Source of the DNA: Escherichia phage 236Ecol005PP
DNA: 64,000 bases
Sequence record: PP434423.1
Direction: 5' to 3' (one strand)
The notes below the pieces were generated by a model, which saw only the letters and a list, made by a program, of their open reading frames with translations, had not been told where the DNA came from and did no database searches. This document shows positions 31,190 through 46,695 of the stretch, piece by piece. Made by a program: the position numbers and the translations under genes. The first letter of the stretch is position 1. The number at the start of each line of letters is the position of its first letter.

Positions 31190-31522
31190 TTATTTTACTA
31201 CTTTCCATTGCTGCATGTCAAGTTTACCAACTTTTTTCATCTTCTCAATTAAGCGTTCGACACGTTGGCGAGCTGTAACATAATACCATTCACCCAATTC
31301 ATTTTGTTCAATTTTTCCAACGATTACTGTATTCAATTCATAAATCCAACCAGTAAAGAAATTATGAACTTGAATTGTAAAGGTGAAATCTGTTCCCATA
31401 CCTTCTGTTGTTTCTACTTCAATAATATCACCTTCAACTGCCATTAAGAACCACATAGTTTCATCATATTTACCATTGAAGCATTTAATTTTAACTGTAG
31501 CGTTCAGATTAATCGTTTTCAT
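31190..31522 (-). CDS. hypothetical protein (110 aa)
   Basis: ORF in compact early operon. Confidence 0.45.
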   Translation of the reverse strand: MKTINLNATVKIKCFNGKYDETMWFLMAVEGDIIEVETTEGMGTDFTFTIQVHNFFTGWIYELNTVIVGKIEQNELGEWYYVTARQRVERLIEKMKKVGKLDMQQWKVVK

Positions 31523-31597
31523 TTTATTCTCCTTTGTTTGTGTAAGATAATACTATTACAAAGGAACCATACTGTAAACAACTTTGTGCAATCTTTG

Positions 31598-31628
31598 GAA
31601 AATAAAAAAGGACTCCCGAAGGAGTCCT
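31598..31628 (-). terminator. intrinsic terminator after the 72-aa basic-protein ORF
   Basis: AGGACTCC-CGAA-GGAGTCCT hairpin followed by T-run on the - strand. Confidence 0.55.
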
Positions 31629-31632
31629 CAAC

Positions 31633-31851
31633 TTATGCTTTCTGCTTACCAAAACGAGAAGCATCATCTCGAAGAACCGCACGTGCTCGGCGCATGATCT
31701 TCTCAACAGTTTGATTGATACGAGAGTTCGACCCACGCTTGTAACCAGCGCGTTTAGAATCACCAACTTTCTTTTCAACTGCTTTCTTTGCTTTAGCTTG
31801 TTTTGCCATTATAAATTCTCTTTTAAATGAAAATGCAGGACTTATTGGCAT
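31633..31851 (-). CDS. small basic protein (72 aa; true start may be internal Met)
   Basis: Lys/Arg-rich ORF (MAKQAKAKKAVEKK...). Confidence 0.45.
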   Translation of the reverse strand: MPISPAFSFKREFIMAKQAKAKKAVEKKVGDSKRAGYKRGSNSRINQTVEKIMRRARAVLRDDASRFGKQKA

Positions 31852-32205
31852 TGCCTGCGCAAGCCCTCAAGGGGAACATAGGTTTTGGATATTTAACGAC
31901 AGGATAACCATAAACCCGTCATCATACCTTATAGCTCTTATCTGTTGCACACCGTTAGCTTAAAGGTTCCGGGTCCGATTTCTCGAGGATAAGATATATA
32001 CTGATGGATATATAGGCCTTGAGGCGTACTCCCGATTGGCCATCACCTCGGGGTAGCATGCACTTGCCGCTATAAGAATAACATTCAAGAGGTACACCGT
32101 AAAACTGCCGGGGTCTTAAAACTATAATGATTCGCAAATCATTAATCAGACAGTTCGACGGCTCCTCGATTTTAGCTCACACTAAGGCAGTGACTCTCCA
32201 ATAAA
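31852..32205. other. GC-enriched non-coding island with long-range complementarity (candidate structured RNA or intron/mobile remnant)
   Basis: About 350 bp without credible ORF, visibly higher GC than flanks; complementary segments CCTCAAGG (near 31866) and CCTTGAGG (near 32028); GGCC...GGCC palindromic ends. Confidence 0.4.
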
Positions 32206-32454
32206 TTACTTCAGTGTTACCACAAAGTGACGAACTGCTTTTCGTGCGGCAGAAGCCAGAGGCTTAGCATACTTAAGTTCATCTTTTTCCTGGAGCTCAG
32301 CGGCTAATGCAGTTTGAGCAGGATTCAGATGTTTGAAATAACGCAGGATTTCAAGAGCTTCGGCTTCAACATCAATAGATGCGCCATAGTTTTCGTGACC
32401 ATTATTCCATGCGTTTCGTTGCAGTTCAAGAGCGTGTTGTAATTGTTTAATCAT
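32206..32454 (-). CDS. rIII: lysis-inhibition accessory protein rIII
   Basis: 82-aa ORF, size and position of T4 rIII. Confidence 0.7.
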   Translation of the reverse strand: MIKQLQHALELQRNAWNNGHENYGASIDVEAEALEILRYFKHLNPAQTALAAELQEKDELKYAKPLASAARKAVRHFVVTLK

Positions 32455-32601
32455 TTAAAAATTCTCGTTAGAGATTAAAACTCGGTAGTCACGTTCTTCT
32501 GAATTTCATCTTCTTTCGACAGATCTCTCAGTTGTAGACTACCACATAGAATTGTTCGGTTAACTTATTATTCCGACACCCAATTCATATTATTATTTAT
32601 A

Positions 32602-32937
32602 TCACTTATAAAGACACGGAATAGCTTTATAGTGACAGGTAACAAATTTTTGTTTAATTTCTTTTGGCTGCTTAAGACCCAGAGCTACAAAAGGATGAGG
32701 AACATTTCGAATTTGACCAACTGGAAGAGAAGTCAAATCACCAACTTCGCAGAAACCTTCAGGAACATCAGGACCAACAGAGTGAACTACACACAGTTCA
32801 GGAACTTCACCTTGGACACGTTTACCGATAATAAGTCCTGATTCTGTAACTTCTTCATCGCCGGCTTGTGCAGGTTCAGAAACTAAAATAACATATTCAC
32901 CGACAGCACGAATTGGTAGCTGTTGTACTTCAGACAT
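32602..32937 (-). CDS. 31: co-chaperonin (GroES homolog) for capsid folding
   Basis: 111-aa ORF, T4 gp31 size/position. Confidence 0.8.
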
Positions 32938-45580: not shown

Positions 45581-45892
45581 TTACACCGCCATTTTTCCTT
45601 TAATAGGAGGGTGTGATTCGTAACCTTTAAGAACGAAATCTTTAGGCCTGAGTTTAAGAGTGTATTCCAATTGTTCTTTAGTAGAAAGATAGCGGAATTT
45701 ATAAGGCAATCCGCCTATTACCAGTTCACAAAGCTCTTTAGGTTCACGACGTAAAATTTCTTTACATTGTTCTACGTGATTCATATAGATATGAGTATTA
45801 CCACCAGAAAATATCAAATCTCCTGGAATAAGATTACACATCTTAGCTACAATATGAACTAACGCAGCATATGATGCAATATTAAATGGAAG
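45581..45892 (-). CDS. td: thymidylate synthase, exon 2
   Basis: Encodes LPFNIASYAALV... (TS C-terminal domain); track ORF start ATG is the last three intron nucleotides. Confidence 0.85.
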   Translation of the reverse strand, partial: LPFNIASYAALVHIVAKMCNLIPGDLIFSGGNTHIYMNHVEQCKEILRREPKELCELVIGGLPYKFRYLSTKEQLEYTLKLRPKDFVLKGYESHPPIKGKMAV

Positions 45893-46146
45893 CATTATGT
45901 TCAGATAAGGTCGTTAATCTTATCCCGGAATTATATCCAGCTGCATGTCACCATACAGATCAGACTATATCTCCATCTTGATGAAGCAAGATGTCTATCG
46001 TTTCGAGTCACTTGACCCTACTCCCCAAAGGGATAGTCGTTAGGCATTTAGTTCAAAAGAACATTTAGCACGGGATTGTCTACTAGAGAGGTTCCCCGTT
46101 TAGATAGATTACAAGTATAAGTCACCTTATACTCAGGCCTCAATTA
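45893..46146 (-). other. group I self-splicing intron in td, ORF-less (about 254 nt)
   Basis: Exon 1 ends ...GTT TTC TTG GGT then TAATTGAGGCCTGAGTATAAGGTGACTTATACTTG...; intron ends ...CTGAACATAATG; both ends match the T4 td intron as recalled; no ORF inside. Confidence 0.8.
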
Positions 46147-46695
46147 ACCCAAGAAAACATCTACACTTCTTTGGTACCATTGTAAATCAAGATAACCATT
46201 ACGCACATTAAACTGATAGAACATATGACAGGGCGGTAATGCCATTTGATTGATTTCAGCTGGATTCCATGCTGAAACGATTTGACGTCGATCAGTTGGT
46301 AATTTTTTAATACGATCAATAGTTTCAACTAATTGATCCACACCACCGAAATCACGCCATTGTTTACCGTATATAGGACCAAGTTCACCACTATGATATC
46401 CTAGGTCTTTAGCCTGGTTTTCATAGTTATCGTCCCAAATAGTTTTACCTTGAATAAGACTACCATGAGTGCGAAGACGTAAATCATTAACATTGGTAGA
46501 ACCGGAAATAAACCATAGAAGCTCAGCAATGCAAGCTTTCCAAGCGAGCTTCTTAGTCGTTACTGCAGGAAAACCTTTAGTTAAATCCCAACGTAATTTA
46601 GTACCGAACAAAGCAATTGTTCCTGTGCCTGTTCGGTCATCGGTTTCATAGCCATTTTCAAAAATGTCTTTAATTAAATCTTGGTATTGTTTCAT
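46147..46695 (-). CDS. td: thymidylate synthase, exon 1
   Basis: 183 codons ending ...PPCHMFYQF...QRSVDVFLG (TS active-site Cys region). Confidence 0.85.

What the first reader, a model, noticed from the sequence alone, without database searches (positions are those of the whole stretch)
31852..32205. Unexplained ~350-bp GC-enriched non-coding island between rIII and the upstream basic-protein ORF
The interval has no convincing ORF (only a 60-aa low-complexity frame), visibly higher GC than the AT-rich flanks, and long-range complementary segments (CCTCAAGG near 31866 with CCTTGAGG near 32028; GGCC...GGCC palindromes; CCGGGG/CCCCGG-type pairs). Such composition in a T-even early region suggests a structured RNA (sRNA, ribozyme, degenerate intron core or endonuclease-less mobile remnant). 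I could not assign it to any family by eye; one stretch weakly resembles group I J8/7-P7 elements (GATAAGATATATACTGATGG), but that may be coincidence.
Basis: seen in the sequence. Interest (0 to 1): 0.55.

Follow-up and report, generated by a model that had tools for sequence, protein, structure and literature searches.

The report
New structured RNA beside phage rIII
The gap between the rIII and 30.9 genes of this T4-like phage does not code for protein; it holds a chain of conserved folded RNA modules, and the central one is an intricate 149-nt RNA domain that matches no described RNA family and that phage T4 itself lacks.

Summary
The interval is real and non-coding. On the minus strand, which is the sense strand of the flanking genes, it carries a chain of conserved RNA structures.

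**The core.** The centre (window 32076-31928, 149 nt) is a discrete RNA domain.
- An 8-bp helix closes it. Eight helices sit around a four-way and a three-way junction, with a GNRA loop and a 6-bp loop-loop pairing.
- On a structure-blind alignment of 26 distinct homologues, 97.7% of cells pair and 24 of 47 pairs show compensatory double changes. No shuffle of 500 reached this, and slid controls paired 30-42%.
- It is 93-96% identical between phage genera whose flanking genes are 68-89% identical.
- About 400 T4-like phages of Enterobacterales carry it, directly downstream of rIII in every locus I inspected. The one exception is Yersinia phage JC221, where it lies after the uvsY operon.
- T4 lacks it through a clean indel.

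**What it does not match.** Nothing matched among Rfam 15 families, tRNAs, introns or ORFs. No paper in the searched library prints its sequence.

**Flanking modules.** A branched hairpin (X) and a pseudoknot (B) are also conserved, and T4 has both.

The "structured RNA" idea is right. The group I intron resemblance is wrong, and the "GC island" contrast is overstated.

**Function.** It is unknown. I favour an autonomous accessory RNA module carried in the rIII 3'UTR/intercistronic transcript. A riboswitch, a ribozyme and a self-assembling RNA remain open.

The parts
31928..32076 (-). Core RNA domain A (149 nt). It is closed by helix P1 (32069-32076 with 31928-31935). It contains P1b GGC/GCC, P2a/P2b, P3, P4, P5 with a GNRA loop, and P6, arranged around a four-way and a three-way junction.
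   Evidence: Model R1 gives one hit in the window, 31923-32082 (-), 188.7 bits, E 4e-41. On MAFFT alignment A3, 97.7% of cells pair and 24 of 47 pairs show double changes, 0/500 shuffles. On the model-fitted alignment A4, 99.3% pair and 24 of 41 show double changes. The single-sequence centroid fold reproduces the same helices.
32040..32045 (-). L2 half of the 6-bp loop-loop (kissing) pairing, UGAUGG
   Evidence: The whole 6-nt L3 loop is complementary to L2 in all 9 loop combinations, in 5 sequence versions: UGAUGG, CGAUGG, CUAUGG, CAAUGA and UGUAUU. Three of the six pairs change on both sides in A3 (helix 4).
32002..32007 (-). L3 half of the kissing pairing, CCAUCA (loop of hairpin P3)
31943..31974 (-). 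P6 (ACCCG / CGGuGU) with its 15-nt loop, plus junction GCAACA. This is the most invariant stretch of the family (ACCCGGA...GCUAACGGUGUGCAACAG).
   Evidence: It is invariant in all distinct homologues but Cronus. The single Cronus change, A:U to U:A, is compensatory.
32085..32168 (-). Module X2: branched hairpin of about 84 nt, upstream of the core in RNA sense. T4 has it too.
   Evidence: RNAalifold on 14 distinct sequences gives 25 pairs, 6 of them with compensatory double changes, and G:U pairs that are valid only on this strand.
32177..32193 (-). Module X1: small hairpin UCAC-UGCCUUAGU-GUGA with a conserved loop
   Evidence: A:U changes to G:C in L011, L017 and JC221 (UCGC...GCGA). Seen directly in the sequences; not tested formally.
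31878..31920 (-). Module B: H-type pseudoknot. Stem 1 is GACGGG/CCUGUC; stem 2 pairs GGUU in loop 1 with AACC downstream; the linker CGUUAAAUAU is conserved. It is present in T4 and in every genus examined, either upstream or downstream of the core.
   Evidence: On alignment A5 (24 distinct sequences), 80% of cells pair against 38-55% in slid controls, and the covariation score is 0.29 against at most 0.145. Stem 1 pairs show UA/AU/GC and CG/GC/UA.
31864..31874 (-). Small hairpin CCCC-UUGA-GGG.
   Evidence: The CCC...GGG ends are conserved while the loop varies (UUGA, UUUGA, UCGA, UUAG, UUCGA).
31825..31857 (-). Weak terminator-like hairpin GCAGG...CCUGC followed by AUUUUCAUUU, just before the 30.9 ribosome-binding site
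   Evidence: Read directly from the sequence. The consensus scan does not call it, and the fold is no better than shuffles. This part is weak.
31633..31809 (-). Gene 30.9 (58-aa basic protein, function unknown), downstream neighbour
   Evidence: 100% identical to T4 gp30.9. PHROG 1427, function unknown. No Pfam, NCBIfam or PDB match.
32206..32454 (-). Gene rIII (lysis inhibition accessory protein), upstream neighbour. The RNA modules lie in its 3' untranslated region.

Best explanation
**Shown.** The interval encodes, on the gene-sense (minus) strand, a chain of independently folding RNA modules that are co-transcribed with rIII.
- The central module (window 32076-31928) is a 149-nt domain of a previously undescribed RNA family.
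- A terminal helix closes it. It has a four-way junction, a nested three-way junction, a GNRA hairpin, a purine-rich internal loop and a 6-bp loop-loop pairing.
- Its junction nucleotides are almost invariant.
- It is under much stronger constraint than the neighbouring protein genes.

**Inferred.**
- It works as a self-contained folded RNA, and its conserved junctions form a specific binding or active site.
- It is carried in the 3' untranslated/intercistronic part of the gp31-rIII transcript, and it may be released from that transcript by processing.
- It is an accessory function. Lineages such as T4 have lost it as a precise unit, without any change to rIII or 30.9.
- I think it most likely acts through a partner, either a protein or a small ligand, or through another copy of itself via the kissing loops. 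I think a direct switch on 30.9 expression is less likely.
For: **Structure.** Compensatory changes occur in 24 of 47 pairs on a structure-blind alignment. 97.7% of cells pair, no shuffle of 500 reached this, and slid controls pair 30-42%. RNAalifold gives the same picture, as does the model-fitted alignment. The kissing loop is kept in five sequence versions.

**Strand.**
- G:U pairs and the GNRA loops (GAAA, GUAA; one lineage has UAAA) are valid only on the minus strand.
- All neighbouring genes are on that strand.

**Constraint.** The core is 93-96% identical between genera, against 68-89% for rIII, gp31 and 30.9.

**Autonomy.**
- A covarying P1 helix closes the domain.
- The T4 allele lacks exactly P1-to-P1 plus a few bases.
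- Modules A and B occur in either order in different genera.
- In phage JC221 a divergent copy (114 bits) sits in a roughly 750-nt non-coding tail of the uvsY operon. That tail ends in a terminator, and the next genes point the opposite way.

**Accessory.** T4 gp30.9 is 100% identical to the window's protein although T4 has no core. Model R1 finds no copy in T4-type loci.

**Non-coding.** There are stops in all six frames in every homologue.

**Unclassified.** Rfam 15 has no match at gathering score or at E<=10. ARAGORN finds nothing. No paper prints the sequence.
Against: - There is no expression, end-mapping or binding data, so 'processed' and 'partner-binding' are inference only.
- In every inspected locus except JC221 (about 400 records hold the core) the element lies upstream of 30.9. 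A cis role on 30.9 therefore cannot be dismissed.
- 7-8 of 8 complementarity persists between the core's J2 and a downstream hairpin. That pairing would compete with P1b/P2a, as in a switch.
- Sequence diversity is modest. There are about 9 loop types and many near-identical genomes, so the covariation rests on a limited number of independent events.
- The high identity between genera could partly reflect recent horizontal transfer rather than constraint.
- Folding energy is not exceptional (z = -1.4).
Confidence: 0.55

Rival explanations
1. Cis-regulatory leader or riboswitch for gene 30.9. The core would be an aptamer for a metabolite or signalling molecule. Ligand binding would decide between the core fold and an alternative pairing of J2 (CCUCAAGG) with the downstream CCUUGAGG. 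That choice would control read-through of the terminator-like hairpin or access to the 30.9 ribosome-binding site.
For: - The architecture resembles an aptamer: closed by P1, multi-helix junction, invariant junction bases, kissing loops.
- It lies upstream of 30.9 in all inspected genera.
- 7-8 of 8 J2/downstream complementarity persists at +8 to +64 nt.
- A hairpin and an RBS follow.
Against: - The segment between P1 and the 30.9 start varies. Module B, and in other genera a 60-nt insert, sit between them, so P1 is not coupled to a fixed platform.
- Changes in J2 or its presumed partner are never compensated, and five lineages lack the partner.
- The JC221 copy is followed by no co-oriented gene.
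- T4 expresses an identical 30.9 without the element.
- The family was never seen upstream of any other gene or in bacteria.
Confidence: 0.15
2. A new self-cleaving (or otherwise catalytic) RNA that processes the gp31-rIII-30.9 polycistronic transcript at a defined site.
For: - The position is intercistronic.
- The fold complexity and invariant unpaired nucleotides are typical of catalytic cores.
- From general knowledge rather than a test here: self-cleaving ribozymes are frequent in phage genomes.
Against: It resembles no known ribozyme class in Rfam 15 at E<=10. Nothing in the sequence identifies a cleavage site. This could not be tested with the tools available.
Confidence: 0.1
3. A passive stabiliser or processing barrier. 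The compact folds would protect the 3' end of rIII/gp31 mRNA from exonucleases, or mark an RNase III/E site, with no specific partner.
For: - In Moonvirus and Karamvirus it begins about 10-20 nt after the rIII stop codon.
- It lies in a 3' tail in JC221 too.
- A weak terminator-like hairpin follows.
Against: A simple hairpin would be enough for protection. This idea does not explain 93-96% identity across genera, invariant junction and loop bases, a covarying kissing loop, or the four-way junction.
Confidence: 0.1
4. A DNA-level element (origin, recombination or endonuclease target, mobile insertion) or merely unconstrained spacer conserved by recent descent.
For: - Presence and absence are polymorphic, with clean boundaries relative to T4.
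- Modules are shuffled between genera.
- The region lies in a hyperplastic part of T4-type genomes, described in PMC2839356 and PMC4122927 (papers I did not read on this point).
Against: - Compensatory changes keep the pairing, and the G:U pairs are strand-specific.
- The core is far more conserved than the adjacent coding DNA.
- There are no terminal repeats or target duplication at the indel.
- The PeSL paper I checked does not mention rIII or 30.9.
Confidence: 0.05

Closest known systems
Riboswitch aptamer domains with a closing P1 and L2-L3 kissing loops (purine and lysine riboswitches)
   Same: - Size class of 100-180 nt.
- The domain is closed by a covarying P1.
- Helices radiate from a junction with near-invariant unpaired bases.
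- A covarying loop-loop pairing joins two neighbouring hairpins.
- A long arm is interrupted by an internal loop. In the lysine riboswitch such a loop bends the arm to allow the kissing contact (from established knowledge of those structures).
   Different: - No sequence or model match.
- The helix number and topology differ: a four-way junction plus a nested three-way junction.
- No fixed expression platform follows P1.
- One copy has no downstream gene.
- No ligand is known.
Orphan complex-fold RNAs associated with phages and prophages (ROOL, GOLLD; cryo-EM in bioRxiv 10.1101/2024.12.08.627333) and phi29 pRNA
   Same: - Phage-borne, highly structured and non-coding, with function unknown or not regulatory in the classical sense.
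- Loop-loop complementarity could be intermolecular and drive self-assembly, as in pRNA rings and ROOL/GOLLD cages.
   Different: - Much smaller than ROOL or GOLLD.
- No Rfam match.
- Restricted to Tevenvirinae of Enterobacterales.
- Whether the kissing pairing is within or between molecules is not known.
- T4-type packaging needs no pRNA (established knowledge).
T4 stable RNAs species 1 and 2 (rnaC, rnaD)
   Same: T-even phage-encoded RNAs of 120-140 nt, of unknown function, cut out of a longer transcript.
   Different: They lie at another locus (the tRNA cluster). Their sequence is unrelated, and model R1 with filters off scores at most 5.5 bits there.
Group I intron core
   Same: A phage-borne structured RNA. 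The same window holds a real one in td.
   Different: The Intron_gpI model gives no hit at E<=10 on either strand, against 72.7 bits for the td intron. The resemblance was on the antisense strand. There are no exons, since the element lies between genes.

Membership tests
Any Rfam 15 family (4227 covariance models) | Score at or above the family's gathering threshold, or at least a consistent sub-threshold hit | tested here: not met
   The gathering scan of the window gives only Intron_gpI at 45941-46156. Evalue scans of 31500-32600 and 31915-32095 give nothing in the core except one chance hit (sobemo_FSE, E 5.1). Cronus and JC221 loci also give nothing at the element.
Group I intron | Conserved P3-P7 core recognised by RF00028, with flanking exons of a split gene | tested here: not met
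   No RF00028 hit at E<=10. The element lies between complete genes rIII and 30.9.
tRNA / tmRNA | Cloverleaf or tmRNA detected by ARAGORN | tested here: not met
   0 genes in the window.
Protein-coding gene (intact or frameshifted) | A reading frame kept open across homologues, or a family hit | tested here: not met
   At least one stop in each of six frames in all 35 homologues. The 60-aa frame has no PHROG hit. Substitutions follow base pairing, not codons.
Riboswitch | Aptamer whose P1 or adjacent strand competes with a conserved expression platform directly upstream of the regulated gene | tested here: inconclusive
   An aptamer-like fold is present. A possible competing pairing exists, but its changes are uncompensated and five lineages lack it. 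The spacing and the intervening modules vary. The JC221 copy has no downstream gene.
Riboswitch | Specific ligand binding | not testable with these tools
   Needs in-line probing, ITC or reporter assays.
Self-cleaving ribozyme (known classes) | Match to the hammerhead, twister, twister-sister, pistol, hatchet, hairpin, HDV-like, glmS or VS models | tested here: not met
   None were listed at E<=10.
Self-cleaving ribozyme (new class) | Site-specific self-scission in vitro | not testable with these tools
   Needs transcription and cleavage assays.
RNase P RNA-like module | Significant sequence or structure similarity to rnpB | tested here: not met
   It shares GUGCAACAGA, GAUGGCC, ACCCGGA and CAAGGCC with E. 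coli rnpB. The segments are in a different order, and the similarity is not significant: shared 7-mers P=0.04, local alignment P=0.09 against shuffles. There is no RNaseP hit in Rfam scans.
T4 rnaC / rnaD | Homology to T4 species 1 or 2 RNA | tested here: not met
   R1 with filters off scores at most 5.5 bits over the T4 tRNA region.
PeSL promoter-terminator cassette of T4-type phages | Early promoter plus stem-loop terminator of about 50-70 bp at module borders | tested here: not met
   No promoter-like site in the gap on the sense strand. The element is 149 nt with eight helices. The PeSL paper does not mention rIII or 30.9.
Conserved structured RNA (generic criterion) | Base pairs maintained by compensatory substitutions beyond the controls | tested here: met

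The most novel reading that the evidence does not exclude
The core is the founding member of a new functional RNA class in T-even-type phages. It could be a new self-cleaving or otherwise catalytic RNA. It could be an aptamer for a host or immune signalling molecule. It could be an RNA that assembles into a homo-oligomer through its covarying L2:L3 kissing loops. In any of these cases it would serve phage takeover or counter-defence.
Probability: 0.25. Interest if true: 0.88.

Novelty: categorically new. Interest (0 to 1): 0.7.

Why it matters
T-even phages are among the best-studied genetic systems, yet this RNA seems to have escaped notice. The likely reason is that T4 itself lacks it, and automated annotation covers it with spurious "hypothetical protein" calls or leaves it blank.

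Several of its properties are those that in the past marked riboswitches, ribozymes and RNP scaffolds:
- eight covarying helices and a conserved loop-loop contact in a 149-nt domain;
- junction bases invariant across at least eight phage genera;
- conservation well above that of the neighbouring proteins.

The natural presence/absence polymorphism makes it directly testable. A precise T4-like deletion allele already exists in nature, so isogenic phages with and without the element can be compared.

The finding also shows that the whole rIII-30.9 gap, including in T4, is a string of structured RNA modules rather than spacer.

One caveat on novelty: catalogues of unnamed phage RNA candidates (for example PMC10690425) could not be searched, so it may already sit unremarked in such a list.

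Tried and rejected
- **Group I intron or degenerate intron.** No RF00028 signal, and the resemblance was on the wrong strand.
- **Any Rfam family, tRNA or tmRNA.** None matched.
- **Small protein or frameshifted gene.** Stops in all frames in all homologues; no PHROG hit.
- **Homology to T4 rnaC/rnaD.** None.
- **RNase P-like module.** The lead came from memory of GUGCAACAGA in M1 RNA. The shared k-mers are real but not significant and in a different order. The UGCAA stretch cannot be a T-loop because its U is in a covarying Watson-Crick pair.
- **Presence outside T4-like phages.**
  - The scan of 185,579 bacterial genomes gave one chance hit, at a Vibrio terminator.
  - The metagenome scan gave only T4-like contigs plus two chance hits in GC-rich coding DNA.
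  - A looser three-block scan of IMG/VR gave 19 extra loci. Model R1 confirmed only Cronus among them.
- **Second copy in the window.** None.
- **Link between the core and the 30.9 protein sequence.** None; T4 gp30.9 is identical.
- **Function of 30.9.** Pfam, NCBIfam, PDB and PHROGs gave nothing.
- **Promoter inside the gap.** No sigma-70-like site on the sense strand. T4 middle and late motifs were looked for by eye only.
- **Literature.** Searches on rIII/30.9, T4-like structured RNAs, PeSL cassettes, gp30.9 and the sequence itself found no description.
- **Larger records.** The two unusually long records (288 kb and 249 kb) were checked for a different context. The synteny is the same: cd-31-rIII-RNA-30.9.
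Full report
**Setting**

The window is a T4-type (Tequatrovirus-like) phage genome segment. Around the finding all genes lie on the minus strand: gp31 (32602-32937), rIII (32206-32454), gene 30.9 (31633-31809; its real start is the ATG at 31809, not the upstream ATG at 31851) and 30.8 (31190-31522). The finding (31852-32205) therefore falls in the 396-bp gap between the rIII stop codon and the 30.9 start codon. Any RNA made from it in the sense of the genes is the reverse complement of the window sequence.

**Checking the observation**

The interval has no credible ORF.
- The only frame of 60 aa starts with TTG and has no PHROG match.
- In 35 homologous copies, each of the six frames carries at least one stop.

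GC content is 44.6%, against 36.3% for the window as a whole. That is the 97th percentile of same-size windows. But rIII (42.6%) and 30.9 (44.1%) are nearly as GC-rich, so "an island in AT-rich flanks" overstates the contrast.

One such repeat in 400 bp is about what chance gives.

Single-sequence folding is not striking. The z-score is -2.2 on the minus strand, -0.15 on the plus strand, and -1.4 for the core alone.

Rfam 15 finds nothing in the gap on either strand, at gathering score or at E<=10. ARAGORN finds no tRNA.

**Comparison with other phages**

BLAST against 50,697 phage records gave three results.
- 995 records match parts of the gap.
- Only 179 cover it fully.
- A central stretch (query 84-218) is about 95% identical even in Klebsiella, Edwardsiella, Enterobacter and Citrobacter phages of other genera.

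In all loci I inspected the stretch lies between rIII and 30.9. These were Moonvirus Merlin, Karamvirus EnA02, Kanagawavirus PEi26 and Kosakonia 305, Klebsiella Roth04, Roskildevirus Cronus, Salmonella Jbel and two long records.

T4 itself has a 244-bp gap. Against the window it lacks 152 nt as a clean indel...CCUCUUGAAUGU|GA|AUGAUGACGGG..., while keeping the sequences on both sides.

About 400 records hold the core: Klebsiella 158, Escherichia 129, then Enterobacter, Shigella, Yersinia, Citrobacter, Salmonella, Serratia, Erwinia, Raoultella and others.

The core is 93-96% identical between the window and four other genera. Over the same pairs rIII, gp31 and 30.9 are 68-89% identical at the nucleotide level.

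**Structure of the core**

I collected 35 distinct copies from IMG/VR, metagenomes and GenBank. I then aligned 26 distinct ones with MAFFT, which does not use structure (A3). RNAalifold and inspection gave the following model, in window coordinates on the minus strand:

| Element | Sequence or position | Note |
|---|---|---|
| P1 | CUUAUAGC 32076-32069 with GCUAUAAG 31935-31928 | closes the domain |
| P1b | GGC/GCC | |
| Internal loop | AAGUGCAU / CUCAAG | |
| P2a | GCUAC/GUAcGC | |
| P2b | CCCGA/UCGGG | carries the 12-nt loop L2 |
| P3 | UAUAUAU/GUAUAUA | carries the 6-nt loop L3 |
| P4 | UCUUAUC/GAUAAGA | |
| P5 | UCGA-GAAA-UCGG | GNRA-type loop |
| P6 | ACCCG/CGGuGU | 15-nt loop |
| Junction | GCAACA | leads back to P4 |

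P1, P1b-P2, P3 and P4 meet with no linker nucleotides, forming a perfect four-way junction. P4, P5 and P6 form a three-way junction.

Counted on A3 with the loop-loop pairing included:
- 97.7% of 1207 cells form standard pairs.
- 24 of 47 pairs have changes on both sides.
- The covariation score is 0.248, against 0.103 in shuffles, with 0 of 500 shuffles reaching it.
- Sliding the 3' partners by 1-3 columns drops pairing to 30-42% and double changes to 3-9 pairs.

A covariance model built from this alignment (R1) realigned all 35 copies. On that alignment 99.3% of cells pair and 24 of 41 nested pairs are compensatory. The alignment is fitted to the model, so it leans towards it.

The centroid fold of the window sequence alone gives the same helices.

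The loop-loop pairing is the most telling detail. The whole 6-nt L3 is complementary to L2 in every copy, in five different sequence versions: UGAUGG:CCAUCA, CGAUGG:CCAUCG, CUAUGG:CCAUAG, CAAUGA:UCAUUG and UGUAUU:AAUACA.

The single change in the otherwise invariant P6 occurs in Cronus and is compensated, A:U to U:A.

G:U pairs (for instance the U:G closing P3 in 31 of 35 copies) and the GNRA loops fit only the minus-strand RNA.

**The rest of the gap is structured too**

*Upstream of the core in RNA sense*
- A small hairpin X1 (32193-32177) has a conserved loop.
- An 84-nt branched hairpin X2 (32168-32085) has 25 pairs. Six of them carry compensatory changes despite low diversity.

*Downstream of the core*
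- Module B (about 31920-31878) is an H-type pseudoknot. Its first stem covaries well and its second stem changes sequence between lineages (GGUU:AACC, GUAGU:ACUAC, GUGAG:CUCAC, GUUGGUU:AACCAAC).
- On a structure-blind alignment B pairs in 80% of cells against 38-55% for slid controls.
- After B come a small CCC..GGG hairpin (31874-31864) and a weak terminator-like hairpin with a U-rich tail (31857-31825), just before the 30.9 ribosome-binding site. The consensus scan does not call that hairpin, and its energy is unremarkable.

T4 has X1, X2 and B. B is present in every genus examined, but it lies upstream of the core in Klebsiella, Edwardsiella and Serratia phages and downstream of it in Escherichia, Citrobacter and Enterobacter phages. 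The modules are therefore independent units that have been shuffled.

**Distribution and exceptions**

- The family was not found in one genome each of 185,579 bacterial and archaeal species. The single pattern hit was a chance match at a Vibrio terminator.
- A metagenome scan returned only T4-like contigs and two chance hits.
- A looser three-block pattern over IMG/VR returned 19 further loci. R1 confirmed only the Cronus genome among them.
- The window has one copy.
- T4-type rIII loci without the core give no R1 hit.

The only copy at a different place is in Yersinia phage JC221 (R1 114 bits).
- It lies in a roughly 750-nt non-coding stretch after the uvsY operon.
- It is followed by X1-like, CCC..GGG and B-like modules and a strong intrinsic terminator.
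- Beyond the terminator the genes point the other way.

**What it is not**

- It is not a group I intron. RF00028 gives no signal at E<=10, though it scores the window's td intron at 72.7 bits.
- It is not related to T4 stable RNAs rnaC and rnaD.
- It is not RNase P-like. Four of its most conserved words (GUGCAACAGA, GAUGGCC, ACCCGGA, CAAGGCC) do occur in E. coli rnpB. However, they are in a different order, and the similarity is within the range of shuffled controls (P 0.04-0.09).
- It is not a PeSL cassette.
- Gene 30.9 gives no functional clue. Its protein is identical in T4, which lacks the core.

**How it most likely works**

*Shown*
- It is a discrete, strongly constrained, multi-junction RNA fold on the sense strand.
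- It lies inside the transcript that carries rIII.
- It can be present or absent as a precise unit.

*Inferred*
- The domain closes on itself, moves relative to its neighbours, is dispensable for an unchanged 30.9, and in JC221 sits in a 3' tail with no gene to regulate. I therefore think it is an autonomous accessory RNA module rather than a leader of 30.9.
- Its invariant junction nucleotides suggest a specific pocket for a protein or small ligand, or an active site.
- The P1b-P2 arm has about 13 pairs plus an internal loop, roughly twice the length of the 7-bp P3. A kissing contact within one molecule therefore needs a sharp bend at the internal loop, as in the lysine riboswitch. Otherwise the contact is between molecules, as in phi29 pRNA or the ROOL/GOLLD assemblies. 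I cannot decide between these two.

*Rivals*

| Rival | Confidence | Main points |
|---|---|---|
| Riboswitch for 30.9 | 0.15 | For: 7-8 of 8 complementarity between J2 and the downstream hairpin persists and would compete with P1b/P2a. Against: changes are uncompensated, five lineages lack the partner, spacing varies, and JC221 has no gene to regulate. |
| New self-cleaving RNA | 0.10 | Untestable with these tools. |
| Passive 3'-end stabiliser | 0.10 | Does not explain the invariant junctions or the kissing loop. |
| DNA-level element or drift | 0.05 | Contradicted by strand-specific compensatory changes. |

**Novelty**

None of the 4227 Rfam 15 models matches. No paper in the searchable library prints the sequence or discusses an RNA between rIII and 30.9. 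The large catalogue of unnamed phage RNA candidates (PMC10690425) has no searchable supplement here, so an anonymous prior listing cannot be excluded.

As an RNA family I rate it as not belonging to any known kind. Its functional class is open.

I score interest at 0.70. The structure is unusually well supported and unusually complex for a phage intergenic element, it sits in a classic model system, and it comes with a natural deletion allele that makes it testable. There is no functional evidence yet, and the taxonomic range is narrow.

Noticed in passing
window 45896-46143 (minus); Rfam hit 45941-46156: A short, ORF-less group I intron (RF00028, 72.7 bits) splits the thymidylate synthase gene td. 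Exon 1 is 46144-46695 and exon 2 is 45581-45895. There is no homing endonuclease ORF, unlike the I-TevI-bearing td intron of T4.
   Followed up: partly
L004 (T4 NC_000866 130541-130784); window 32085-32193 and 31878-31920: T4 itself carries conserved structured modules in its rIII-30.9 gap: X1 hairpin, X2 branched hairpin and B pseudoknot. The T4 record annotates none of them. B is present in every Tevenvirinae genus examined.
   Followed up: partly
L085 (Yersinia phage JC221 MN508817) about 600-1335: A roughly 750-nt non-coding stretch after the uvsY operon holds a divergent copy of the core (787-953) plus X1-like, CCC..GGG and B-like modules, and ends in a strong terminator. The record annotates two small ORFs over it (699-875 minus, 1176-1295 plus) that are probably spurious.
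   Followed up: partly
L005, L006 and L008, between the CCC..GGG hairpin and the 30.9 start (e.g. L006 about 1117-1190, minus): Non-Tequatrovirus genera carry a further insert of about 60 nt closed by GGGAGC...GCUCCC, with two GAAA-type loops. It is followed by a conserved hairpin (UCUCC-AAAAU-GGAAGA) that would sequester the 30.9 ribosome-binding site.
   Followed up: no
window 31608-31629 (minus): A strong intrinsic terminator (GAGGACUCC-UUCG-GGAGUCCUU + U tract) lies right after 30.9. The sub-threshold Rfam hits Atu_C8 and Phe_leader at 31594-31677 are just this terminator.
   Followed up: yes
L002 (Pinarejo), L006 (Roth04) and other GenBank records: Automated annotation places one or two 'hypothetical protein' CDS across the RNA core in many phage records. 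No reading frame is conserved there, so these calls are very likely false.
   Followed up: yes
window 31928-32076 vs E. coli rnpB (L088 217-593): Four of the most conserved words of the core (GUGCAACAGA, GAUGGCC, ACCCGGA, CAAGGCC) also occur in E. coli RNase P RNA, in a different order. The similarity is statistically borderline (P 0.04-0.09) and I treated it as chance.
   Followed up: yes
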